From positions 1 to 13,034 of the forward strand of contig JAQVRW010000041.1 of NCBI GenBank assembly GCA_028700875.1: 13,034 nt of DNA. The letters are read 5' to 3'. The number at the start of each line of letters is the position of its first letter. Within the stretch, counting starts at the first letter, position 1. Below are positions 664-13,034 of the stretch, in pieces. A model generated the notes under the pieces. It ran no database searches and was not told the origin of the DNA. It worked only from the letters and a program-made list of their open reading frames with translations. The translations under genes and the position numbers were made by a program. This DNA comes from Candidatus Zixiibacteriota bacterium. GTDB lineage: Bacteria; Zixibacteria; MSB-5A5; GN15; JAAZOE01.

Positions 664-2112
664 ATGCGAGGGAGAGAGTATCGATCGGTCTCAAACTATC
701 TGCGGCCTAGCCAACGGCAGTTCTACCTGATCGATCAACTCGCATACTACTCAAAGAATCTGTACAACGTCGCGTTGTACAATGTTCGTCAGCACTACCT
801 TGAGTGGCAGGAACAAGCAACCTACATGACCGGGATTCGGCCGGATATCACAAACAACGTCGATATCCTGGTGGGATCCTACCTTCCTTACTCCCGGAAA
901 ACCTCGTATCCGTACAAAGATATCTGCAACTATGCCCGGACAAAATCGAACGAGAATTATCCGCTCCTCCACAGTGATGTTGCTCAACAAACCATCAAGA
1001 GTGTGGAAGAGGGGTACAAATCGTATTTCGGATTGTTGTGGTCGTACCGGCGGGGAAAATTGAAAGATTGTCCTCGGCCGCCCCACTATCTGGAGAAAGA
1101 CGGTCGGTACAAACTGGCGTTTCCGGCAATTCGACTCAGGTTTCGAAAGGGATATGTCACGCTCGGGGTCTCCCGTCAGTTCAAACGTCGATACGGCGTG
1201 GGAAAGAACGAACTCTCGTTCAAGATCCCGCCCCAGATCCGACCTGACCAGATCCGGGAAGTCACGATCCTGCCGATCAACAACGGACTAACCTACAAAA
1301 TCGAGTTCTCCTACACGATCAAATCCACTCCTGCCCCGGTCATCCAGGACCGGTACCTTGCAATCGATCTCGGGCTCACGAATTTTGCCACGTGCGTGGA
1401 ATCCGCTACCGGGACGGCCTTCATCCTCGACGGCTCGTATCTCAAATCAATCAACCGGTGGTACAACAAAGAGACCGCACGATTGCAGGCGATCAAAGCC
1501 AAACAACATCTGCCCCAGAACCTCACGCGCCGTCAGGCGCGGTTGCTCAACCGTCGCAACAACACGATCAACGAAGCCATGAACCGGTTTGCTGTCTACA
1601 TCGTGCAGTATGCGATCGACCGGCAGATCGGGACGATCATCCTGCCGACGTGGGACGGGATCAAACACAAGATCAAACTGGGACCGAAAACCAACCAGAA
1701 CTTTGTCCAGATCCCCTATGCGAAATTCCGGTTCAAACTGAATGGGCTTTGCCAGCAGTTCGGGATCGTCTTCGACGATACCCACGATGAACGCTATACC
1801 TCGCAGGTGGACGCGCTTGCGCGCGACCCCCTCAAGAAACCGGCGTATGGCAGAACCCGGCGGATCCAGAGAGGATTGTATCAGAGTTCGGTTGGTACGT
1901 TGATCAATGCGGACGTGAACGGGGCGTTGAACCATTTGAGGAACGTAGCCGGTGATTCCATCATCGCATGGATAATCGGTAGCGGCCGCGTCAACCGGCC
2001 GGTACGAATAAGGTTTGCCTTCGAGGGCCAAGCCCCCGAACGGATCACCAAACAGCCTTCGTACGCATTAAATCGTGATGGTGGCAACACCGTCACAAGC
2101 CACCGGTTCTAA
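664..2112 (+). CDS. tnpB: IS200/IS605-family (IS1341-type) TnpB-like protein with apparently degenerate RuvC-II and zinc-finger motifs
   Basis: The N-terminus (YRSVSNYLRPSQRQ...NLYNVALYNVRQ) fits the TnpB OrfB_IS605 N-domain pattern. AIDLGLTNFAT is RuvC-I, YTSQ is the motif that precedes the zinc finger, and INADVNGALN is RuvC-III. Where a canonical TnpB has I/V-x-L-E-D-L the sequence reads IILPTWDGI (no Glu), and no Cys pairs follow YTSQ (YTSQVDALARDPL). No tnpA gene is adjacent. Confidence 0.85.
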   Translation: MRGREYRSVSNYLRPSQRQFYLIDQLAYYSKNLYNVALYNVRQHYLEWQEQATYMTGIRPDITNNVDILVGSYLPYSRKTSYPYKDICNYARTKSNENYPLLHSDVAQQTIKSVEEGYKSYFGLLWSYRRGKLKDCPRPPHYLEKDGRYKLAFPAIRLRFRKGYVTLGVSRQFKRRYGVGKNELSFKIPPQIRPDQIREVTILPINNGLTYKIEFSYTIKSTPAPVIQDRYLAIDLGLTNFATCVESATGTAFILDGSYLKSINRWYNKETARLQAIKAKQHLPQNLTRRQARLLNRRNNTINEAMNRFAVYIVQYAIDRQIGTIILPTWDGIKHKIKLGPKTNQNFVQIPYAKFRFKLNGLCQQFGIVFDDTHDERYTSQVDALARDPLKKPAYGRTRRIQRGLYQSSVGTLINADVNGALNHLRNVAGDSIIAWIIGSGRVNRPVRIRFAFEGQAPERITKQPSYALNRDGGNTVTSHRF

Positions 2113-2443: not shown

Positions 2444-2608
2444 GGATCCGTGGTGGTGTCGTGGCTTCACGGCCGCATCCGGGTGGATCCGTGGTGGCGT
2501 CATGGACGGGTGGTGGTATCGCCGGTGAACGCATGGCGGTGTCATGGACCGGTGGTGGAACCCTCGTGAACCTATGACAGAATCGTGGCTGGATGGTGGC
2601 AACCATGG
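2444..2608. repeat. Degenerate tandem array with ~41-bp period (GGATCCGTGGTGG / GTCATGGAC / GTGAAC motifs), about 4 units
   Basis: ggatccgtggtgg occurs at 2444 and 2485. gtcatgga occurs at 2500 and 2541. gtgaac occurs at 2525 and 2566. GGTGGTGG-like runs sit near 2452, 2493, 2511, 2553 and 2594. The array runs into the start of the MerR-like ORF. Confidence 0.5.
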
Positions 2609-3222
2609 AATATTCACTCACTGTTGATGATATTGTACAGCAAACCGGGTTCACCACGTCGACGGTTCGGCGGTACCTGCGTGATTTCACGGACTTTATC
2701 CCGTCGAACCCGATCAACCGGAAGCAGGTCCTGTATGGCGAAGAGACCGTGGCGATCGTGACCCGGATCAGTGATCTCTACGGATCCGGGAAGTATACCC
2801 CGGACATCAGGGAGATCTTGAAGTATGAGGTACCGATGACGGTTGAGGTTCACGAGGTTGTGGAACTCCCGAAATCGGACGAAATCGCGGTTGCGATTCG
2901 TCCCGACGTCCAGGATCAGATCGACCGGGTCGTGGCGTTGGCCGAATCCCTGGTAGAAAAAATGCAGCAGATCGACGATCATGAAACCGAGATCACGGCG
3001 ATGCGGCAGACCCTGGTCGATACCCGGGCGCAGGTCACGGGGTGTATCGACCAGATGACGGCCGTGGAACGGGCGATGCGTGATGAGTCGCGAGTGGACG
3101 CACTCACCCGCGAGATCCAGCAGCAGAATGCTACCATCGCCTCGCTCACCGACGAGATTGCGGCGTTTCGTCAGCAGCCGGTGACGTTCTGGGGCTGGGT
3201 ACGCCAGACGTTCAAATTTTAA
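2605..3222 (+). CDS. MerR-like HTH transcriptional regulator with a C-terminal coiled-coil
   Basis: The N-terminus LTVDDIVQQTGFTTSTVRRYLRDF matches the MerR-family HTH pattern (T-x-x-E-x-A-x-x-x-G-V-S-x-x-T-L-R-Y-Y). The C-terminal half is heptad-like (EITAMRQTLVD...IASLTDEIAAF). The start could be ATG 2593 or 2605. A T7 run follows the stop. Confidence 0.55.
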   Translation: MEYSLTVDDIVQQTGFTTSTVRRYLRDFTDFIPSNPINRKQVLYGEETVAIVTRISDLYGSGKYTPDIREILKYEVPMTVEVHEVVELPKSDEIAVAIRPDVQDQIDRVVALAESLVEKMQQIDDHETEITAMRQTLVDTRAQVTGCIDQMTAVERAMRDESRVDALTREIQQQNATIASLTDEIAAFRQQPVTFWGWVRQTFKF

Positions 3223-3350: not shown

Positions 3351-4895
3351 TTAGAAGAAGTCGTCGGCCCGCTTCAACGTTTTCGGCGGCACATCCTTCT
3401 TCTCGTTGAGTGAACCGAGGAACTGTTCCGCGACACTCGCAAGCGCATCAAGCGACGTTTTTGGCGGCACAGTGACAGTGTCCATTACCGATTCTGGAGT
3501 CGCCGGGGCATCGTTGGACGGGTTCTCAGTCTCACCATTCGACCGATCAACCACGGACTTGATCAGACCGGCGATCTTCTCGGTGGCGTCCGGCTCGGCC
3601 GCGTTTAAGGCTTTCAGCATCCCGCCGATCCCCAGTCCGCCTTTGACCGTGAAGAGGTCGAGGAAGTTCTCCGGGTTACCGCTCCCGATATACTGAACAT
3701 CTGCTGCCTTGAGGGCTTCTGCGAGCGCCAGACCGACCCGTTCATCTTTCTCAATCACCCGGATTGCCTGTGCCTTGGTCTGCTGATACTCCTGGGCTTT
3801 GGCCTTCTCCATCATACCGTCGGCTTCGGCAAACAGCTGGGCCTTGGTGCCTTCTGCAGCGGCGATCAGTTTTGCCCTGTTCCCGGTTGCTTCCGCCACC
3901 ATGGTGATCTCGGTGACGTTGGCTTTCGCCTTGCCTTCGAACTCGATCTTCCTGGCCTCTCCTTCACCTTCGAGCGAGAGCCGTTCCCGGTTGCCGGTAG
4001 CGGTCTCGACCATCGCCCGCTTCTCGCCTTCGGCCCGCCGTACCGCGGCATCCGCATCGATCTCGGCTTTCTGCACGGCGTTGATCCGGTACACGTTCAT
4101 CTTCTCTTCGGCTGCCGCCTTCTCGCGCTTGGCAACCTCCATGATCCGGTCCTGTTCTCGCATATCGACATGCTCTTTCGCCTCGATTTTCCGCTTCTCT
4201 GCGATCTCGAACGTATCGGCTTCGACCAGTTCGGCGTCCCGGTTCTTGTTGGCCACCTCTTGACGGGAGTTCGAGTTGATCTGCGCTTCCATCTTCGCCG
4301 AGATGTCGTGGATGACCGTGGAGCTGCCGTCAACCGGGTCCCGGATTGAGACGATCGCAACGTTCGTGAGTTCGACACCCCATTTTGTGAAGTCGGGCGC
4401 AAGTTCGCGGGTCAGGTCGGCCGAGATCTCTTCCCGCTTGGCGATAACATCTTCGATCGAGTAGTTTGCCGTCGTTTTCCGGATTGCCGAGATGACAATC
4501 TCTTTCATACCGTCCTGGAAATCCGAGATCTTGCGGCCGGGGAACCGGCGGGCGGCTTCCGCAATATCGATGATCTTGCAGTAGACCGTGACATCAATGA
4601 CGAACCGGGGATTGCCTTTTGCGAACGTTTCGTAATCTTTGACGACAATACTGATGATGCTCAGCGGCATTCGCTGCACGACCACACCGAGGATCGGGAC
4701 CCAGGAAGGGAACGCGTAGTAGATCGGGGTCATCTTCTGGCCTTCGGGCACCACCGACGCGTCACCCGTATAGATACGGGTCCCGTGTTTCCCGACCACT
4801 ACGTCGGCATAGTTCGCGTCCACAACCCGGCGTAGGAGGATCAGCCAGATCGCCAGTCCTACCAGTGCAATAATTCCAAGTAATGTTACCAGCAT
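3351..4895 (-). CDS. Flotillin-like SPFH/band-7 domain membrane protein
   Basis: N-terminal TM anchor MLVTLLGIIALVGLAIWLILL. SPFH-like core. A long Glu/Ala/Lys-rich coiled-coil region. The flotillin C-terminal signature YIGSGNPENFLDLF. An SD-like AAGGTGA sits 6 nt upstream of the ATG. Confidence 0.85.
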   Translation of the reverse strand: MLVTLLGIIALVGLAIWLILLRRVVDANYADVVVGKHGTRIYTGDASVVPEGQKMTPIYYAFPSWVPILGVVVQRMPLSIISIVVKDYETFAKGNPRFVIDVTVYCKIIDIAEAARRFPGRKISDFQDGMKEIVISAIRKTTANYSIEDVIAKREEISADLTRELAPDFTKWGVELTNVAIVSIRDPVDGSSTVIHDISAKMEAQINSNSRQEVANKNRDAELVEADTFEIAEKRKIEAKEHVDMREQDRIMEVAKREKAAAEEKMNVYRINAVQKAEIDADAAVRRAEGEKRAMVETATGNRERLSLEGEGEARKIEFEGKAKANVTEITMVAEATGNRAKLIAAAEGTKAQLFAEADGMMEKAKAQEYQQTKAQAIRVIEKDERVGLALAEALKAADVQYIGSGNPENFLDLFTVKGGLGIGGMLKALNAAEPDATEKIAGLIKSVVDRSNGETENPSNDAPATPESVMDTVTVPPKTSLDALASVAEQFLGSLNEKKDVPPKTLKRADDFF

Positions 4896-4947: not shown

Positions 4948-5193
4948 CTACAGATATTCTTCGCTTGTCAGTTCCGTCCGGTTATCGCTGATCCGGTTCG
5001 ACAGGTTATCGTTCCGCACCAGTTTGCTCCGGCGCTTCGTGTCATCAACCGAGATCAGCACCGCATCTTTCCCGCCGTGCACGACGTTCTCGTAAAACTT
5101 GATGAGGTCGTCCGGTGACTTGAAGACGATCTTCGTACACTCGTCGTCCATCGACACGATCTCGAATTTCAGAATGTCCGACATAAAACCCAC
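4948..5193 (-). CDS. Hypothetical small acidic protein (81 aa), likely co-transcribed with the flotillin gene
   Basis: The ORF has a protein-like composition. It lies about 50 nt upstream of the flotillin gene on the same strand. TTTATAT and an AGGAG-like element lie upstream of its ATG. The intergenic region holds a hairpin plus the flotillin SD. Confidence 0.45.
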   Translation of the reverse strand: MGFMSDILKFEIVSMDDECTKIVFKSPDDLIKFYENVVHGGKDAVLISVDDTKRRSKLVRNDNLSNRISDNRTELTSEEYL

Positions 5194-5230
5194 TCCTAAA
5201 TGAGCATATTAACGTGGAACGCACCACCAT

Positions 5231-5354
5231 ATAAACGTAATGGAGTTTCTCCATGAAATCTGCATAGTTGCATGGTATTACAACGAGTATGACACCTGCA
5301 TTGTACGCCTCCGTCAGATGTGCGCGGGAAAAAGAAGATTATGCGGGAAGAATG
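5231..5354. repeat. Copy 1 of a ~125-bp diverged direct repeat containing the palindrome ATGGAGTTTCTCCAT
   Basis: About 80% identical to 6962-7081. Conserved blocks are ataaaYgtaatggagtttctccaYgaaatctgcata, gcattgtacgcc and tgcgcgggaaaaaga. The palindrome is at 5240-5254. Confidence 0.6.
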
Positions 5355-5818
5355 TCGATGACCTCACCGATTTCGTTTAACTTTACAGTATACGTCCCGT
5401 TGATCTCAAGGTTCATCCAGATGACACGGTCATAATAGTATGCGTATTCGTTTCGAAAGTTATCTGTTTCGAAATGGATCCGGTATACACACCCCGATGT
5501 GTCCATAATGTAGTACACGGTGCGAGATCCTCCCCCGGATGTGAATTTGATAGCGGCAATGCATTCATGCATTTTCGCGACCGTAATCGTCTTTACCGTC
5601 GTTGGGTCCGATATATCGGTCTCAAACGCGCCCATTCCGTCCGTCACCATTGTATCCTGCACGGTATCGGGATGATAGACAATGCAGCAGAGAACCATTA
5701 TAATGACAATACTTAGTATTCCCAAATAGTACGACTGATCTGATACCATACCATTACTGGTGATGCAAAAAATGATAAAGGTTATGACAAAAAAAAGATG
5801 ACGGGTGGTGAGGATCAT
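5339..5818 (-). CDS. Hypothetical membrane protein (159 aa): two N-terminal TM helices plus a ~110-aa C-terminal domain
   Basis: Hydrophobic stretches LFFVITFIIFCI and LGILSIVIIMVLCCIV. Its start overlaps the stop of the upstream 339-aa ORF (ATGA). Its GC is about 43%, against roughly 58% for the surrounding genes. Confidence 0.6.
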   Translation of the reverse strand: MILTTRHLFFVITFIIFCITSNGMVSDQSYYLGILSIVIIMVLCCIVYHPDTVQDTMVTDGMGAFETDISDPTTVKTITVAKMHECIAAIKFTSGGGSRTVYYIMDTSGCVYRIHFETDNFRNEYAYYYDRVIWMNLEINGTYTVKLNEIGEVIDILPA

Positions 5819-6834
5819 TCGGTCCGGAAGTCGATGATCGTCCGATCCTGCTCCGTCAACGGCATTTCATCCCGGTACGTCGATTCTGTGTCGACATTGT
5901 CAGACGCGGCAAACGTGTAGAAAATGCGGTCAGTTACCGACTTGAACAGTGTGTTGATGGCGATTTGATGACAGGGAGGGAGATTGTGAGTGGCGTCAAT
6001 GCCAAGCCGATACGTCCAGCCGTTACAGAGATCAAGGATGATCGGAGCAATCTCGTTGATGATCTCTCCCACCCCACGTATCGGCACACGGGTGCGGAAC
6101 GTCTGATCAACTGTCTTGGTCCAGAGGTAAGTTGCAGCTCGGTTGGCAGCATCACTGATATCATTGAGGAACGGGAATTCGGCGTCGCCCGTCCCAGTAA
6201 TCGGGGAGAATGCGGCGAATTCCGGATACTGACGGAACAATCGTTCCGCGGTGTGCAGTTCGGTCTCGGCGTCGAACCCATCGATGATATTACGGCTTCG
6301 TAACGCGAGCACGGCGTCAATCATGTCGGCGACCATCAGATATTCGAGGTGCTGAACGAACTGCAATGCTGACTTGTGGCAGACGTTTGGTTTCGATATA
6401 TCTGCAAGCGTTTTTGCGAAGATTGGTTTCATGTTGAAATATGTATTGATGCACGTTGGTGTGAAAATGACCGGATGGTGAACGATATCGTAAGCCTGGA
6501 TCTGTGCATGCCAGTCGTTTGCCTGCATCAATCTGACGCGATCCCATTTATCTGCGAGCAGGTAAAATGATCGCGGTTCGGCCAGTGTCTGGAATGCCAT
6601 CGCGATACGTCGTTGGTCGTCGACGTGGATTCCGGCTGGGTTTAGTCGAGTAATGGGAAACTGCATGAGGTATAGCAGAGCATCCTCAGAATAATCTATC
6701 ATGCAACCATCGGGTTGAGATAGTATATGGGTCAGCGTCACGTCGGCTTCGTACAGCGAGTAGCCCGTCTCCTGGTCAGGAGTAACACGAACCGTGACCT
6801 TGGTGACATCGTCCAATAGCCTTTTGCGTTTCAT
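5815..6834 (-). CDS. Hypothetical protein (339 aa), unknown function, first gene of the low-GC two-gene cassette
   Basis: A long ORF with protein-like composition and no motif I can recognise by eye. It is translationally coupled (4-nt overlap) to the 159-aa TM protein. Its GC is low for this window. Confidence 0.65.
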   Translation of the reverse strand: MKRKRLLDDVTKVTVRVTPDQETGYSLYEADVTLTHILSQPDGCMIDYSEDALLYLMQFPITRLNPAGIHVDDQRRIAMAFQTLAEPRSFYLLADKWDRVRLMQANDWHAQIQAYDIVHHPVIFTPTCINTYFNMKPIFAKTLADISKPNVCHKSALQFVQHLEYLMVADMIDAVLALRSRNIIDGFDAETELHTAERLFRQYPEFAAFSPITGTGDAEFPFLNDISDAANRAATYLWTKTVDQTFRTRVPIRGVGEIINEIAPIILDLCNGWTYRLGIDATHNLPPCHQIAINTLFKSVTDRIFYTFAASDNVDTESTYRDEMPLTEQDRTIIDFRTE

Positions 6835-6961
6835 GGTCGGTTACCCTGTAATAAGGTGTGAATCAACATAAAGGTATGGGATCGTCGAACGAATGGGCCC
6901 TGCTATCATCTCTTCCTTTGTGAAAGGAGTCTTCCCGCTCCGCTCCTTCAACCTCGCAAAG

Positions 6962-7081
6962 ATAAATGTAATGGAGTTTCTCCACGAAATCTGCATAATT
7001 GAATGGTAATATAACGGGTGTGACAATCGCATTGTACGCCCCACCGGTCGTGCGCGGGAAAAAGACGATGTGGGGAGGATG
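6962..7081. repeat. Copy 2 of the ~125-bp direct repeat (palindrome variant ATGGAGTTTCTCCAC)
   Basis: Aligns with 5231-5354 in the same orientation. It lies between the rtcB stop and the promoter region of the 339-aa gene. Confidence 0.6.
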
Positions 7082-7105: not shown

Positions 7106-8407
7106 TCAGGTCGACGCTTTCAGGTTGTAGACCGGTCGGATCCGGTCAACGATCTCGACGCTCGGCGCAATTGCGTCGATGATGGTCTGGGCGTCTTTGT
7201 AGGCGCCCGGCGCCTCGTCGAGCGTCTCCCGTCCGACCGACGTCGTGTAAATCCCCTGCATCTGGTCCCGATACTCCTCCACGCTCAACGTCCGTTTCGC
7301 AACGCTCCGGCTCATAATTCGTCCCGCCCCGTGAGGAGCGGAACAGTTCCAGTCCACATTGCCTTTTCCCACGCCGATCAATGACCCGTCTCGCATGTTG
7401 AACGGAACGATGAGCCGGTCGTCCTGGTGGCTCCGGATCGCGCCCTTCCGGATGATCAGGTCATCGAAATCGATGAAGTTGTGCACCGACTCGATCCGGT
7501 CCACAACCATTGCATCCGGGATCGTCGCCAGGATCCGGGCAATCATGGTGTCCCGGTTCAGGGCGGCATACTGCTGGGCGAAGATCATCGCGTGGTAGTA
7601 GTCGTGCGCCTGTTGGCCTTCGAGATAGGCCAGATCTTTAGGGATTCCCAACCCGAGTTCGTCCCGCATCTTCTTGATCTCAGCCCCGATCCGGTTCCGT
7701 TCGCAGGTGGTCCGGATCGCATCCAACCGGTCCTGGTATTCGCGTTCCCGGTGTTTTCCCACCGTCTTGAGGGCGAGCCGTTGGTACGCCTCGGCAACCC
7801 GCAACCCGAAGTTGCGCGACCCGCTGTGGACGACCACCCATTTCTCACCCTGTTCACCTTCGGCGACCTCGATGAAATGGTTCCCGCCCCCGAGCGTGCC
7901 GACCGCCGCCCGGACCGCGTCCGGTTCCGCCCGCACGAAGGTGCACAATTTCTCGAACCACTCGTAGGTATACTTGACCGGTTCGATCGTGGTGTCATAC
8001 GTTGCGGCAAACCGGTCGCGGAACCGGTATCCGATCTCATTGACCAATTTCCAGTCGAACCCGTGTTTCAGGTTGACGACCGCGTGGCCATGCACGTTGA
8101 ACCCGACCGGTACCGCTTTACGAACGGATCGGTCGAGCGTCGCGTAATCGATATCGATATCGCCGATGTTGACCGCGGTGATCCCGCAGCCGACATCGAC
8201 CCCGATGGTGTTGGGGATCACTTTGTCGCCGAGCGGCATGGTGAACCCGATAACGCTCCCTTTCCCGGCATGCGTGTCGGGCATGATGGCAACCGGGTTG
8301 GTAAACGCCGGGTGGTTGACGAACGTGCGAATCTGCGCAATACACTCCTCCTCCACGTCGTCGATCATCACCCGGGCGGTCGTATATTTTCCGGATATTT
8401 CGAACAT
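7106..8407 (-). CDS. rtcB: RtcB-family RNA ligase (3'-phosphate/5'-hydroxyl RNA-splicing ligase), short form (433 aa)
   Basis: Hallmark RtcB motifs MPDTHAGKG, GVDVGCG (metal-binding Cys) and GTLGGGNHFIE (Asn-His pair), with conserved His residues further on. An SD-like GGTGA lies upstream of the start. Confidence 0.9.
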   Translation of the reverse strand: MFEISGKYTTARVMIDDVEEECIAQIRTFVNHPAFTNPVAIMPDTHAGKGSVIGFTMPLGDKVIPNTIGVDVGCGITAVNIGDIDIDYATLDRSVRKAVPVGFNVHGHAVVNLKHGFDWKLVNEIGYRFRDRFAATYDTTIEPVKYTYEWFEKLCTFVRAEPDAVRAAVGTLGGGNHFIEVAEGEQGEKWVVVHSGSRNFGLRVAEAYQRLALKTVGKHREREYQDRLDAIRTTCERNRIGAEIKKMRDELGLGIPKDLAYLEGQQAHDYYHAMIFAQQYAALNRDTMIARILATIPDAMVVDRIESVHNFIDFDDLIIRKGAIRSHQDDRLIVPFNMRDGSLIGVGKGNVDWNCSAPHGAGRIMSRSVAKRTLSVEEYRDQMQGIYTTSVGRETLDEAPGAYKDAQTIIDAIAPSVEIVDRIRPVYNLKAST

Positions 8408-10952: not shown

Positions 10953-11333
10953 TCAACCAACAACATTGTAATCGTCCAATACGGTTGGAAAACTCCCGTC
11001 TTGTGGTTGATGTGTCGTCACGTTGACCGATACCGGATACGTGATATTCTCCACCGTCACCGATGTGGGATCCCACCGTTTCGCTGGGCCTGTCCACTGG
11101 ACCTCCAGACGAACTCCGGGGTGCAGACCGGTCAGGGTGAACTTGTCGATCCCGGTGACCTTCCACAGCGTTCCCCGGGTATCTTCGACGATGGTTCCCG
11201 CAATTCCTCTGATGGTGATCGTCTCGGTATGGACCTCGGTGAGTTCGGTATGCAGAGGGATACCGAGGAAATATACTACGGCTACCAGAATTACGACCGC
11301 AAGAATGCCGTCAAGAGAAATATCGTCAGACAT
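10953..11333 (-). CDS. Hypothetical membrane-anchored protein (126 aa; N-terminal TM helix plus a beta-rich extracytoplasmic domain)
   Basis: An internal ATG (11331-11333) of the 204-aa ORF yields MSDDISLDGILAVVILVAVVYFLGIPL.... This ATG overlaps the stop of the upstream macro-domain gene (ATGTCTGA), which implies coupled translation. Confidence 0.55.
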   Translation of the reverse strand: MSDDISLDGILAVVILVAVVYFLGIPLHTELTEVHTETITIRGIAGTIVEDTRGTLWKVTGIDKFTLTGLHPGVRLEVQWTGPAKRWDPTSVTVENITYPVSVNVTTHQPQDGSFPTVLDDYNVVG

Positions 11334-11763
11334 TGCAATTGCCTCGTTCGACGGGCATCCAGACCTCGTGCCGGTTGTCGAGCATATCGTCCAACACCGC
11401 CAACACCTCGTCCTGGTTGAGACCACCGAGCCCGGCGCCGAGCAACGGAAATGCGGCGGGAACATCGATGAACTTGTTGTAGAAGGCAAGCCCACTGCTG
11501 ATAAGGCTGATATCGGACCGATCCCGCCAGTGGTGTTTCGTCGGGAACAGCACGACGTCCGGCCCATTTTCGTTTTTCCAGAGCAGGGGGCGACCCAGGG
11601 TCAAGAGGTTGGCACGACACGCCGCCTGGTATGCGGGCAGCATGGCGGGAAACCGGCGTCAGAACTGGAGGGCAAGCCCGGCCCCCATGACTCCGACACA
11701 GTTGACCGGGTTGACCAACACCGGTTTGGTGCTCGCGAAGATATCTCCGTAGTTGATCTGCAT
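11326..11763 (-). pseudogene. DarG/TARG1-like macro domain (ADP-ribosylglycohydrolase family) interrupted by an in-frame TGA at codon 35
   Basis: The minus-strand translation reads MQINYGDIFASTKPVLVNPVNCVGVMGAGLALQF*RRFPAMLPAYQAACRAN...VVLFPTKHHWRDRSDISLISSGLAFYNKFIDVPAAFPLLGAGLGGLNQDEVLAVLDDML.... This matches the DarG N-terminal macro-domain pattern (VNtVNtVGVMGKGIALqFKrrFPenY..Y..AC; iNFPTKkHWR; iaiPpLGaGnGGL). The TGA sits where a Lys/Arg is conserved (QF[K/R]RRFP), and CGA to TGA at a CpG is a single transition. The DarG sequence is recalled from memory. Confidence 0.7.
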
Positions 11764-11798
11764 ATCGAATGGTTGTAGGTGAGAGAAGATAAGCGTAT

Positions 11799-12530
11799 GG
11801 TTCCATTGGAACCCGCCACGAGGCCACACTTTCCTATCGATCCGGGATCCCGGGTAATCATCGAGGGTAGGGCGAATTGGCCACGGTAAATGCGCTGATC
11901 GGCCGGTGCCACTGGAGATTGCAAAATGGTCCAGTGGAAGTCTCTACAGATTACGACGGATAGGCGAAATGCCGACCGTTCCGGTGACATCTCCATCGAC
12001 GATCCCGGGGCTTCGTGAGCAGCAGATCCGCAATCGCGCTTCCGATGGAACTCATCTACGGGGTTTGAAGACGGGAATTACCGATTCATCCGGTTTTCAG
12101 AAGAATTCTACCGGAAGGGAGGGGGGAGGCCGCACCTTCCGAAGGAGGGTGAAATGGGAAGATACCCCGGGTATCTTCCAAATTTCTGATAAAATGGATT
12201 GTTGTTGAGGTATGCAACTCATGGTAGATAAAGGTGCCGGCCACCTCGGATCCGGGCACCGGGGATACCTTTTTTTCCGGGTTGGAGTGGAAGGTGCGGC
12301 CTCCCCCCTCCCTTCCGCTCGACGTTTCTTCTGCATCTACAATTTTTCCACTGGAACCACTCAGATGCAGTTTTTGGTCGTGGAATGGCAAATGCAGCCT
12401 CACCGTCTCTTCTCTTCGATGCCCATTCCTCGGTGGATCGTTCCATGGGAACTGACAAAACTCCATTCGAAACCCCTAAATAGGTTGTGGACAATCTCTG
12501 ATCGTGACCCCCGACTCCATCCGAGACGAA
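11799..12530. other. Candidate replication origin (oriC) upstream of orc1/cdc6, with ORB-like elements, inverted repeats and an AT-rich candidate unwinding element
   Basis: Mini-ORB-like cores: GTTCCATTGGAAC (11799-11811), CCACTGGAG...TCCAGTGGAAG (11908-11940), TTCCACTGGAA (12346-12356) and GTTCCATGGGAAC (12440-12452). The canonical archaeal mini-ORB is TCCAGTGGAAAC. The AT-rich segment 12180-12232 has about 33% GC. The region sits directly 5' of orc1/cdc6. Confidence 0.65.
12113..12316. repeat. Perfect 28-bp inverted repeat (ggaagggaggggggaggccgcaccttcc, at 12113-12140 and 12289-12316) with G-strings, flanking a 23-bp palindrome and the AT-rich stretch
   Basis: An exact reverse-complement match seen directly in the sequence. 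An inner palindrome ggaagataccccgggtatcttcc lies at 12157-12179. G-runs are reminiscent of the ORB G-string. Confidence 0.7.
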
Positions 12531-13034
12531 ATGCGGCACCGGATCGCGACCGCCCGGCAGGCGGCTTCCTCGATCTTCACCGATCCCAACGCACTCTCGA
12601 ACGAATACGTGCCGACCCACCTGATCGCCCGGGACGACCAGATCCTCGACGTCCTGGACATCTTCCTCCCGACGTTCCGCACCGGCGCCAAGATTCGGAA
12701 CCACATCATCCTCGGTCCCACCGGGTGCGGGAAGACCGTGGTCGCTCGCTACGTGATGCGATTCGTTAACGACGAGATTGCTACCGAAGCCGAGACGGCG
12801 CCGGCGGACAAACCGACGATCCGCCCAATCTACGTCCTGTGCCGGGACAACCGGACCAAAGTATCTATCTTGATCAGCATCATCACCGATCTCGACCCGA
12901 CGAGCAAATTTATCAATCGCGGGATCCGGTACGACGAATACGTGGCCGAGATGGTCCGGCTCATCAATCGGCTTAACGTCAGTCTGGTCATCCTCTTCGA
13001 CGAGATTGATCAGGCCAATCCTGCAGAAATGTCC
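12531..13034 (+). CDS. cdc6: Orc1/Cdc6 origin-recognition AAA+ ATPase (N-terminal 168 aa; continues beyond the window)
   Basis: EYVPTHLIARDDQILDVLDIFLP fits the Orc1/Cdc6 N-terminal pattern. Walker A is GPTGCGKT. Walker B is LVILFDEID. The frame is open to the window end, and an in-frame TAA lies at 12477-12479 upstream. ATG 12531 is preferred, with GTG 12504 a possible alternative. Confidence 0.9.
   Translation, partial: MRHRIATARQAASSIFTDPNALSNEYVPTHLIARDDQILDVLDIFLPTFRTGAKIRNHIILGPTGCGKTVVARYVMRFVNDEIATEAETAPADKPTIRPIYVLCRDNRTKVSILISIITDLDPTSKFINRGIRYDEYVAEMVRLINRLNVSLVILFDEIDQANPAEMS

What the first reader, a model, noticed from the sequence alone, without database searches (positions are those of the whole stretch)
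5231..7081. Low-GC two-gene cassette (339-aa unknown plus 159-aa two-TM protein) bracketed by ~125-bp direct repeats, sandwiched between RtcB and a flotillin operon
The segment between the two repeat copies (about 5355-6960) has roughly 42-45% GC, while the flanking genes are at roughly 58%. That points to horizontal acquisition. The two ORFs overlap by 4 nt (ATGA), so they form a single unit. Neither shows a motif I recognise. The second encodes a small two-TM protein with a compact C-terminal domain, an architecture common among membrane-disrupting effectors of abortive-infection and defence modules. An RtcB RNA-repair ligase lies immediately upstream on the same strand, and a flotillin (membrane-microdomain) operon immediately downstream. 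A sensor or enzyme paired with a TM effector in a compositionally foreign island is a plausible undescribed defence or stress module. No known defence system matches this pair in my recollection.
Basis: partly seen in the sequence, partly recalled or inferred. Interest (0 to 1): 0.75.

Follow-up and report, generated by a model that had tools for sequence, protein, structure and literature searches.

The report
Dead ATPase plus membrane-protein operon remnant
The flagged segment is a real but very rare two-gene unit on an uncultured archaeal replicon: an ATPase-like protein that has lost its ATP-binding loop, plus a small membrane-anchored protein. Its flanking "direct repeats" are two copies of the neighbouring flotillin operon's terminator-promoter region, so there is no sign of a freshly inserted defence island.

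Summary
The sequence observations mostly hold. There are two direct repeats of about 120 nt (5231-5351 and 6962-7081, 84% identical). Between them, on the minus strand, lie a 339-aa and a 159-aa ORF with an ATGA overlap, and RtcB and a p78-flotillin operon flank the unit. The GC dip was overstated: 49.3% against 56%, not 42-45%.

The 339-aa protein is not motif-free. It is a truncated relative of Pfam PF24389 ("ORC-CDC6-like" P-loop NTPases) that lacks Walker A, and its predicted fold is AAA+/STAND-like. Full-length PF24389 proteins sit in metallophosphoesterase-NTPase-~350-aa operons, and none of those partners is present here.

The 159-aa protein carries a new ~85-aa beta-rich domain behind a membrane anchor. 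Its gene is doubly frameshifted in every other close assembly that covers both tracts, from three JGI samples and two ENA assemblies. It is intact in the window and in two further independent assemblies.

The repeat is a T5 terminator, a palindrome and a TATA box. It is conserved upstream of p78-flotillin in a diverged sister lineage, which carries the same gene pair beside flotillin but preceded by four more small genes. The window ORF still contains the last ~20 codons of one of those genes.

I therefore read the unit as a truncated native operon re-headed by a duplicated promoter. Its function is unknown. Nothing tested supports a defence role: there was no significant PADLOC hit.

The parts
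6962..7081 (-). Repeat copy R2, between the RtcB stop and the 339-aa gene. Read on the minus strand it contains a T5 run (7059-7063), a near-palindrome GTGGAGAAACTCCAT (6971-6985) and a TATA-like TTTATCT (6960-6966).
   Evidence: In contig L002 the central part is converted to the R1 sequence (91.7% vs 84%).
6835..6961 (-). 127-nt leader or spacer between R2 and the annotated ATG of the 339-aa ORF. It has no counterpart in the sister lineages. A second TATA-like TTTATGTT lies about 33 nt upstream of the ATG at 6834.
   Evidence: homology to the relatives L010, L028 and L030 begins only at about 6765.
5815..6834 (-). 339-aa ORF: an inactivated, truncated PF24389 'ORC-CDC6-like' P-loop domain. 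Residues 1-73 are predicted disordered. Residues ~24-44 (about 6703-6765) are the fused last codons of an upstream 136-aa gene that is intact in relatives. The ancestral start corresponds to M45 (ATG 6700-6702).
   Evidence: (Walker A GxRGxGKT replaced by A[DN]KWD-RV; Walker B CIDxxE replaced by GIDATH).
5339..5818 (-). 159-aa ORF. Two N-terminal hydrophobic helices (about residues 5-21 and 27-47), an acidic linker, and a ~85-aa beta-rich domain (residues ~70-159) with motifs TITxAKMH, SRTVYYxMDT, YRIHF, DRxIWM and TYxVxLNE. No family in Pfam, PHROGs, NCBIfam or PADLOC.
5789..5796 (-). T8 homopolymer on the coding strand at codons 8-10 of the 159-aa gene. It is T7 in L001-L004 and L022, which breaks the frame from the coupled ATGA start.
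5532..5536 (-). G5 homopolymer on the coding strand in the 159-aa gene. It is G4 in the same sister assemblies, which destroys the conserved C-terminal domain (the 111-aa product P0004).
5231..5351 (-). Repeat copy R1, the native intergenic module upstream of p78-flotillin. It contains a T5 run (5329-5333), the perfect 6-3-6 palindrome ATGGAGAAACTCCAT (5240-5254) and the TATA box TTTATAT (5229-5235), 44 nt upstream of the p78 ATG, with AGGAG as ribosome-binding site. Its last 12 nt overlap the end of the 159-aa ORF.
   Evidence: core conserved upstream of the p89-flotillin genes in L005/L006; same TATA-to-ATG geometry at RtcB.
4948..5184 (-). 78-aa gene (p78), first gene of the flotillin operon. 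Conserved with flotillin in the sister lineage (68% aa identity). No family hit.
3351..4895 (-). 514-aa SPFH/Band 7 flotillin-like protein with an N-terminal membrane segment.
7106..8407 (-). 433-aa RtcB RNA ligase, upstream neighbour. It has its own TATA (TTATATAC) about 45 nt upstream of its ATG.

Best explanation
The segment is the truncated 3' part of an accessory operon native to a small family of uncultured archaeal replicons. It is now driven by a duplicated copy of the neighbouring flotillin-operon regulatory region.

**Shown**
- Gene 1 encodes only the ASCE core of a PF24389 'ORC-CDC6-like' NTPase. The P-loop is replaced (GxRGxGKT becomes A[DN]KWD-RV) and the Walker B glutamate is lost.
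- Gene 2 encodes a membrane-anchored protein with a new ~85-aa beta-rich domain.
- Both genes are under purifying selection.
- The ~120-nt repeat is terminator, palindrome and TATA box, and its core is conserved upstream of p78-flotillin in a diverged sister lineage.
- That sister lineage has the order [130][134][94][136][dead ATPase][TM-domain][soluble domain paralogue]-R-[p89][flotillin].
- The window ORF still carries the last ~20 codons of the 136-aa gene fused in frame.

**Inferred**
- A rearrangement deleted the upstream genes and put a second copy of R (R2) next to RtcB.
- The pair is therefore transcribed from, and co-regulated with, the flotillin promoter. The two copies still exchange sequence by gene conversion.
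- The dead ATPase cannot bind or hydrolyse nucleotide in the canonical way, so it most likely acts as a non-catalytic scaffold or adaptor.
- Its membrane partner is dispensable: it is a pseudogene in most sister strains.
- My working guess for function is a membrane-associated accessory role linked to the flotillin microdomain operon. I put that part at roughly 30-35%. The anatomy and history part I put at roughly 70-75%.
For: **Family and inactivation**
- Pfam PF24389 hit at 29.7 bits, above the cutoff of 27.
- An exhaustive profile search finds only 11 proteins among 1.84 billion representatives. The distant ones are ~660-712-aa PF24389 proteins with intact GxGKT.
- Alignment A5 shows the motif losses. 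tblastn of full-length members against the window gives E = 2.6e-13.

**Real genes**
- dN/dS is 0.14-0.24.

**Repeat as regulatory module**
- Alignment of R1, R2 and the region upstream of p89 in L005/L006.
- The RtcB promoter has the same TATA-to-ATG spacing.
- The palindrome occurs only in R1 and R2.
- The repeat shows no RNA-structure signal, z between -0.8 and +1.1.
- Gene conversion in L002: 91.7% identity against 84%.

**Native rather than inserted**
- Sister-lineage synteny.
- Homology to three other lineages begins at about 6765, inside the ORF.
- Homologue GC is 53-58%.
- Every contig that spans a junction carries the cassette.

**Dispensability of gene 2**
- T7+G4 double frameshift in L001-L004 and L022; intact T8+G5 in the window, L035 and L036.
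Against: - No transcript data exist. R2's TATA is degraded (TTTATCT) and lies 128 nt from M1. A second TATA-like element lies nearer the ATG, so use of R2 as the promoter is unproven.
- The direction of the duplication (which copy is original) rests on a single sister lineage.
- The link to flotillin rests on adjacency in only two lineages, with a terminator between the units.
- The 159-aa model is unusable (pLDDT 47), so nothing structural supports a membrane-scaffold role.
- The cassette genes are much more diverged between lineages (dN 0.35-0.42) than flotillin (dN 0.06). That could also mean cassette exchange rather than vertical descent.
Confidence: 0.6

Rival explanations
1. The pair is a degenerate remnant, or a repurposed part, of a conflict (defence or anti-defence) system. 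The dead ATPase descends from the NTPase of a metallophosphoesterase-NTPase-~350-aa system, and the membrane protein is an effector or accessory.
For: - All four contexts of active PF24389 proteins show a tight Metallophos -> PF24389 -> next-gene operon. In the two with a full-length ATPase a ~350-aa gene follows. In the other two the ATPase gene is split and the contig ends in the next gene. One operon sits next to a D12 methyltransferase.
- The phosphoesterase weakly resembles NCBIfam 'anti-phage phosphoesterase' DS9_1: 49.7 bits against a cutoff of 420.
- The fold is nearest to RdrA/KAP, STAND and ORC NTPases.
- The family is rare and patchy, evolves fast, and lies on a replicon with TnpB and a homing endonuclease.
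- Loss of a toxic TM effector by frameshift is a plausible decay path.
Against: - PADLOC gives only an insignificant hit for the 339-aa protein (AbiEi, E = 0.023) and none for the 159-aa protein. The full-length relatives match PADLOC models only over the P-loop.
- The phosphoesterase and the ~350-aa partner are absent from the window and its relatives.
- The ATPase motifs are lost.
- The TM architecture is not conserved, and a soluble paralogue exists.
- No neighbouring defence genes were identified.
Confidence: 0.15
2. The 159-aa protein is a highly diverged NfeD-like partner of the flotillin. NfeD proteins have N-terminal membrane helices and a C-terminal all-beta domain, are encoded next to an SPFH gene, and organise or regulate the SPFH assembly.
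For: - Architecture: two hydrophobic helices, a short hydrophilic linker, then five predicted strands.
- The gene lies on the same strand directly upstream of a flotillin operon in two lineages.
- No ORF scanned in the window matches Pfam NfeD, so this flotillin lacks a recognised partner.
- Flotillin-type SPFH2 partners such as YuaF and YqiJ are known to be barely recognisable by sequence, about 21% identity (PMC2636767; read).
Against: - No Pfam NfeD hit even at E <= 10.
- hhalign probability is 0.06-0.16% against YbbJ, YqiJ and a four-sequence NfeD profile.
- No hit to any PDB sequence.
- The domain is longer (~85 aa) and has different motifs.
- A terminator-promoter module and p78 separate it from flotillin.
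- The gene is a pseudogene in most sister strains while flotillin is intact.
Confidence: 0.12
3. The cassette is a horizontally acquired insertion. A circular DNA carrying a homologous stretch integrated by single crossover (Campbell type) or by illegitimate recombination, which left the direct repeats. The repeats could also excise it.
For: - Direct repeats bracket the unit exactly.
- GC and GC3 are lower than in the neighbours.
- The cassette genes are far more diverged between lineages than flotillin.
- Several assemblies break at R1 or R2 (L003, L020, L021, L023).
- There is gene conversion between the copies.
Against: - The repeats are only 84% identical.
- There is no integrase or recombinase next to the unit.
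- The same pair sits at the same place in a diverged lineage without RtcB or R2 directly upstream.
- The left homology boundary lies inside the ORF, at a truncated gene, and not at the repeat.
- Homologues have background GC.
- No cassette-free allele was seen.
Confidence: 0.1

Closest known systems
Pfam PF24389 'ORC-CDC6-like' P-loop NTPases (uncharacterised ~660-712-aa proteins)
   Same: - Significant HMM match, and a pairwise tblastn match at E = 2.6e-13.
- Collinear alignment over the whole ASCE core.
- Conserved non-catalytic positions: the Walker B Asp, the LNTL motif, and ESTY...PLTxxDR.
- AAA+/STAND-like predicted fold.

   Different: - Only the N-terminal ~265 residues of the family are present.
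- The Walker A loop and the Walker B Glu are replaced.
- No metallophosphoesterase gene upstream and no ~350-aa gene downstream.
- Paired instead with a small membrane protein, on an archaeal-type replicon.

Inactive STAND/ORC-Cdc6-like domains used as scaffolds, e.g. BrxB of BREX
   Different: There is no sequence relationship and no BREX genes nearby. PADLOC gave no BREX hit. This is an analogy of principle only.
NfeD-SPFH operon partners (YbbJ-QmcA, YuaF-FloT, YqiJ-YqiK)
   Same: A small protein with N-terminal membrane helices and a C-terminal beta-rich domain, encoded beside an SPFH/flotillin gene on the same strand (PMC2636767).
   Different: - No sequence or profile similarity.
- Separated from flotillin by a terminator-promoter module and another gene.
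- Partnered with a dead ATPase.
- Dispensable in sister strains.
RdrA (RADAR) and KAP-family NTPases
   Same: They are the best Foldseek matches of the model in the PDB and in viral structures: probability 0.92-0.99, E = 0.002-0.02.
   Different: The matches are weak (TM-score about 0.3). There is no RdrB-like deaminase and no active site, and the protein is a third of the size.

Membership tests
PF24389 ORC-CDC6-like NTPase | HMM score above Pfam's gathering cutoff | tested here: met
   29.7 bits against a cutoff of 27, E = 3.6e-07, but covering only profile positions 77-281 of 571. The homologue P0006 scores 30.1 bits.
PF24389 ORC-CDC6-like NTPase | Walker A P-loop G-x-R-G-x-G-K-T | tested here: not met
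   The aligned position reads A-D-K-W-D-R-V in the window and A-N-K-W-D-R-V in P0002 and P0006. All six active relatives in the alignment have G[ITS]RG[SAT]GKT.
PF24389 ORC-CDC6-like NTPase | Walker B h-C-[IVF]-D-x-x-E | tested here: not met
   The window has L-G-I-D-A-T-H. The Asp is kept and the Glu is replaced by His.
PF24389 ORC-CDC6-like NTPase | Full-length architecture: ~700 aa with a ~350-aa C-terminal region | tested here: not met
   The protein ends right after the last core strand, and the downstream gene is unrelated.
PF24389 ORC-CDC6-like NTPase | Operon with an upstream metallophosphoesterase, followed by a ~350-aa gene where the ATPase is full-length | tested here: not met
   The metallophosphoesterase is upstream in 4 of 4 contexts of active members, and the ~350-aa gene follows in the two full-length ones. 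tblastn finds neither partner in the window or its relatives.
PF24389 ORC-CDC6-like NTPase | ASCE / AAA+-STAND-like fold | tested here: met
NfeD (SPFH operon partner) | Match to Pfam NfeD, or profile similarity to NfeD proteins | tested here: not met
   No hit at E <= 10. hhalign probability is 0.06-0.16% against YbbJ, YqiJ and an NfeD alignment.
NfeD (SPFH operon partner) | N-terminal hydrophobic helices plus a C-terminal all-beta (OB-fold) domain | tested here: inconclusive
   Hydropathy shows two TM segments. The model shows five strands but its pLDDT is 47, so the fold cannot be judged.
NfeD (SPFH operon partner) | Same operon as an SPFH gene | tested here: inconclusive
   Adjacent and co-directional in two lineages, but a T5 run, a TATA box and the p78 gene intervene.
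Known anti-phage defence systems (PADLOC-DB v2) | Significant match of either protein to a defence-system model | tested here: not met
   The 339-aa protein matches only AbiEi at E = 0.023 (12 bits). The 159-aa protein matches nothing.
Abortive-infection type TM effector | Membrane-disrupting toxicity controlled by the partner | not testable with these tools
   This needs expression experiments. Indirect evidence: the TM number is not conserved, and the gene is a pseudogene in sister strains.
Site-specifically integrated cassette or island | Integrase or recombinase, near-identical att repeats, and empty sites in relatives | tested here: not met
   There is no recombinase beside the unit. The repeats are 84% identical. 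The pair is present at the same place in a diverged lineage, and no empty site was found.

The most novel reading that the evidence does not exclude
The dead ATPase is a decoy carried by the mobile replicon. As a catalytically inert copy of the NTPase of a host metallophosphoesterase-PF24389 conflict system, it would co-assemble with the host enzyme and poison it. That would be a dominant-negative anti-defence protein. The membrane protein would be an optional helper.
Probability: 0.06. Interest if true: 0.7.

Novelty: new variant of a known kind. Interest (0 to 1): 0.3.

Why it matters
If the reading is right, the case is mainly a caution. Direct repeats and a GC dip can arise from promoter duplication and operon truncation, and need not mark an acquired island.

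The finding also adds two small things:
- A purifying-selected lineage of an uncharacterised NTPase family (PF24389) that has no P-loop.
- An unclassified ~85-aa domain that occurs in both membrane-anchored and soluble forms.

It also brings out that active PF24389 proteins lie in a conserved operon headed by a metallophosphoesterase, which in the full-length cases ends with a ~350-aa gene. That operon is itself an untested candidate conflict system and is probably the more rewarding target. None of this bears on a long-standing open question.

Tried and rejected
1. **Structured RNA in the repeat.** Single-strand folds have z-scores from -0.8 to +1.1, and the alignment fold has no covariation support. 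Rfam finds nothing there. Rejected.
2. **Multi-copy element (MITE-like).** Only two copies exist in the window and in the 24-kb relative. Rejected.
3. **NfeD homology.** No support from Pfam, PDB sequences or hhalign. Kept only as an analogy.
4. **Structure of the 159-aa protein.** AlphaFold2 with a four-sequence alignment gave pLDDT 47, so no fold search was run on it. I should have added the 88-aa paralogue from L006 and dropped the frameshifted P0004.
5. **Metagenome scan for the promoter module.** This was wasted. My gap range (17-23) excluded R1 and R2, whose gap is 24. The five hits are unrelated to the window, and the collection did not return the L005-type copy that should have matched.
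6. **Host and element identification.**
   - No relative of the 339-aa protein was found in GTDB species genomes or IMG/VR.
   - The replicon's Orc1/Cdc6 has only a 32% match in the genome collection (a Bathyarchaeia MAG) and 33% to Methanosarcina plasmids.
   - Neither Orc1/Cdc6 nor flotillin has a relative in IMG/VR.
   - TnpB is at best 38% identical to a Methanohalobium plasmid copy.
   - The host and the nature of the element (plasmid, virus or chromosome) remain open.
7. **Remnants of the PF24389 partner genes in the window.** None found.
8. **AlphaFold database fold search.** The library was not available.
9. **Word-indexed search with a broader profile.** It returned only 4 proteins.
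Full report
**1. What is in the sequence**

All the relevant genes lie on the minus strand, in this order:

| Feature | Coordinates (minus-strand direction) | Note |
|---|---|---|
| RtcB | 8407 -> 7106 | Pfam E = 1.8e-65 |
| Repeat copy R2 | 7081 -> 6962 | |
| Spacer | | 127 nt |
| 339-aa ORF | 6834 -> 5815 | |
| 159-aa ORF | 5818 -> 5339 | ATGA overlap with the 339-aa ORF |
| Repeat copy R1 | 5351 -> 5231 | |
| 78-aa gene (p78) | 5184 -> 4948 | |
| SPFH/flotillin | 4895 -> 3351 | 514 aa |

- The repeat is real. The repeat finder gives 79 nt at 86% plus 20 nt at 95%, and a local alignment gives 118 nt at 83.9%.
- Against the near-identical contig L001, blastn aligns 121 nt at E = 1e-25.
- There are only two copies in the 24-kb relative.
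- The compositional claim was overstated. GC between the repeats is 49.3% (339-aa gene 51.7%, 159-aa gene 43.8%) against 56% in the flanks. GC3 is 54-61% against 69-80%.

**2. The 339-aa protein**

- It matches Pfam PF24389 "ORC-CDC6-like" just above threshold: 29.7 bits against 27, over profile positions 77-281 of 571.
- It is extremely rare.
  - A word-indexed search of 5.8 billion clusters gave two hits.
  - An exhaustive HMMER search of 1.84 billion representatives gave 11.
  - Three of those 11 are close relatives or fragments (P0006, P0007, P0011), two are low-complexity repeats, and six are PF24389 proteins. Five of the six are ~660-712 aa long, and one is a 353-aa split form.
- Aligned with those proteins, the window protein is collinear over the whole ATPase core, but the catalytic motifs are gone.
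  - The P-loop G[ITS]RG[SAT]GKT is replaced by A[DN]KWD-RV.
  - The Walker B motif CIDxxE is replaced by GIDATH.
  - Non-catalytic conserved positions are retained (LNTL, ESTY...PLTxxDR).
- Full-length members hit the window ORF directly by tblastn at E = 2.6e-13.
- AlphaFold2 on this alignment gives a confident alpha/beta core for residues ~75-339 and a disordered N-terminus, residues 1-73.
- The protein is therefore a truncated, catalytically dead AAA+/STAND-like domain. It is still under purifying selection, with dN/dS of 0.14-0.24 against homologues that are 57-72% identical.

**3. What active PF24389 proteins look like**

- In all four contexts I could retrieve, the NTPase gene overlaps the stop of an upstream metallophosphoesterase gene of about 430-455 aa.
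- In the two contexts with a full-length NTPase, a gene of about 350 aa follows. One of these operons lies next to a D12 methyltransferase.
- In the other two contexts the NTPase gene is split, and the contig ends within the next gene.
- PADLOC and NCBIfam give only sub-threshold, P-loop-level or N-terminal similarities to defence proteins.
- Neither partner has any trace in the window or its relatives.

**4. The 159-aa protein**

- No Pfam, PHROGs, NCBIfam or PADLOC family matches it.
- Hydropathy shows two N-terminal membrane segments.
- The C-terminal ~85 residues form a conserved unit with the motifs TITxAKMH, SRTVYYxMDT, YRIHF, DRxIWM and TYxVxLNE.
- That unit recurs in P0005, a 127-aa protein with a single signal-anchor-like segment. 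It recurs again in an 88-aa soluble paralogue encoded immediately after P0005 in contig L006.
- dN/dS is about 0.2.
- The AlphaFold2 model was too poor to use (pLDDT 47).
- Two homopolymers differ between strains.
  - The window and two independent assemblies (L035, which is 100% identical over 2,588 nt, and L036) have T8 and G5, giving the intact 159-aa ORF.
  - Contigs L001-L004 and L022, from three JGI samples and two ENA assemblies, have T7 and G4.
  - That combination removes the coupled start and destroys the conserved domain.
  - The 339-aa gene stays intact in L001-L003.

**5. The repeats**

- Read in the direction of transcription, each copy begins with a T5 run (CTTTTTCC). It contains a 6-3-6 palindrome, ATGGAGAAACTCCAT (perfect in R1, one mismatch in R2), which occurs nowhere else in the window. 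It ends with a TATA box: TTTATAT in R1 and TTTATCT in R2.
- R1's TATA lies 44 nt upstream of the p78 ATG, which is preceded by AGGAG. The RtcB promoter has the same geometry.
- The core of the repeat (TTGTCA...GTTGTAATACCA...AAACTCC.TTAC.TTTATAT) is conserved upstream of the p89-flotillin genes of a diverged sister lineage.
- There is no evidence for a structured RNA.
- In contig L002 the middle of R2 has been overwritten with R1 sequence, raising identity from 84% to 91.7%. The two copies therefore recombine.

**6. Relatives and history**

- Contigs L028, L006 and L005 overlap and reconstruct a sister lineage. Its flotillin is 88% identical at the protein level, with dS of 0.86.
- The gene order there is [130 aa, TM][134 aa][94 aa][136 aa][dead ATPase, 279 aa][TM-domain, 127 aa][domain, 88 aa] - R - [p89][flotillin].
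- Two further lineages (L010, L030) also have the 136-aa gene ending at the start of the ATPase gene.
- The window's similarity to all of them begins at about 6765, inside the 339-aa ORF. Residues ~24-44 (GYSLYEADVT...) are the last codons of the 136-aa gene, fused in frame. The ancestral start corresponds to M45.
- Homologues in these lineages have ordinary GC, 53-58%.
- Every contig that spans a cassette junction contains the cassette, and no empty site was seen.
- The pair is therefore native to this group of replicons and sat beside the flotillin operon before the lineages split.
- The window lineage lost the upstream genes and gained a second copy of the flotillin intergenic module in front of what was left.
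- The lower GC of the window copy is lineage-specific. I interpret it as drift, which is an inference.

**7. Function**

*Shown*
- The unit has a non-catalytic NTPase core and a membrane-anchored small domain.
- Both genes are under selection.
- The membrane partner is dispensable.
- The unit is adjacent to flotillin in two lineages.

*Inferred*
- The pair is transcribed from R2 and hence co-regulated with flotillin.
- The dead ATPase has a scaffold or adaptor role.

I rank the readings as follows:
- A flotillin-linked membrane accessory role is the most likely functional reading, but at only about one in three.
- A degenerate conflict module comes next.
- An NfeD-like partner is an attractive analogy. 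SPFH2 partners are known to be almost unrecognisable by sequence (PMC2636767). Every sequence test failed, however.
- A Campbell-type insertion is least likely.

**8. Setting**

- The window ends in the start of an Orc1/Cdc6 gene (from 12531). That gene is preceded by ORB-like inverted repeats, which looks like a replication origin.
- The replicon also carries two TnpB copies, a LAGLIDADG endonuclease and a MerR-like regulator.
- Its Orc1/Cdc6 is at most 32-33% identical to anything in GTDB species genomes or the plasmid collection. Nothing related is in IMG/VR.
- It is probably an archaeal extrachromosomal element, but this is not established.

**9. Verdict**

The unit is a new, inactive variant of a known but uncharacterised family, joined to an unclassified small domain. 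It is of modest interest.

Noticed in passing
window 11798-12530 and 12531-13034 (+): This looks like a replication origin next to the start of an Orc1/Cdc6 gene, which runs off the window end and is 427 aa in L001. There is a 34-nt inverted repeat with a G-string (12107-12140 / 12289-12322, 94% complementary). There are also mini-ORB-like GTTCCAnTGGAAC elements at 11798-11811 and 12346-12359, plus similar ones near 11927 and 12441.
   Followed up: partly
loci L008, L009, L026, L027: Active PF24389 NTPases sit in a conserved operon with overlapping genes, headed by a metallophosphoesterase of ~430-455 aa. In L026 and L027 the NTPase is full-length (~700 aa) and an unknown ~350-aa gene follows. 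In L008 and L009 the NTPase gene is split. L026 has a D12 methyltransferase next to the operon. This is an uncharacterised candidate conflict system.
   Followed up: partly
window 5789-5796 and 5532-5536: Two homopolymer tracts in the 159-aa gene (T8 or T7, G5 or G4) occur only in the combinations T8+G5 (window, L035, L036) and T7+G4 (L001-L004, L022). This is a linked double frameshift that separates two strain populations.
   Followed up: yes
L002 8674-8795 vs L001 and window 6962-7081: In one strain, the central ~35 nt of repeat copy R2 carries the R1 sequence variants (identity 91.7% instead of 84%). This indicates gene conversion between the two copies. Several assemblies also break exactly at R1 or R2.
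   Followed up: partly
window 664-2112 (+); L001 17920-19368: A 482-aa TnpB (OrfB_IS605 plus a Cas12f-like TNB domain) is present in two copies that are about 90% identical at the DNA level on the 24-kb relative. A LAGLIDADG homing endonuclease gene lies between them. No TnpA was seen.
   Followed up: no
window 2593-3222 (+): A MerR-type HTH protein with a long C-terminal coiled coil is convergent with the flotillin gene. In E. coli the MerR-family gene cueR lies next to ybbJ-qmcA (NfeD-SPFH), which may be coincidence. The palindrome in R1 and R2 could be its operator, but this is untested.
   Followed up: no
window 7106-8407 (-): The RtcB here is short (433 aa). Its best matches in the phage collection are bacteriophage RtcBs at about 42% identity. 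It looks like an element-borne RNA-repair ligase, not the host's tRNA-splicing enzyme, though this is not established.
   Followed up: partly
window 11326-11643 (-): A 105-aa ORF matches the middle of PHROG 335 ('phosphatase', E = 1.9e-14, profile positions 102-200 of 422). It has no Pfam hit and may be a gene fragment.
   Followed up: partly
L006 1262-1528 / L005 653-910: The sister lineage encodes an 88-aa soluble paralogue of the C-terminal domain of the 159-aa protein, directly after the membrane-anchored copy. The domain therefore exists in both anchored and free forms.
   Followed up: yes
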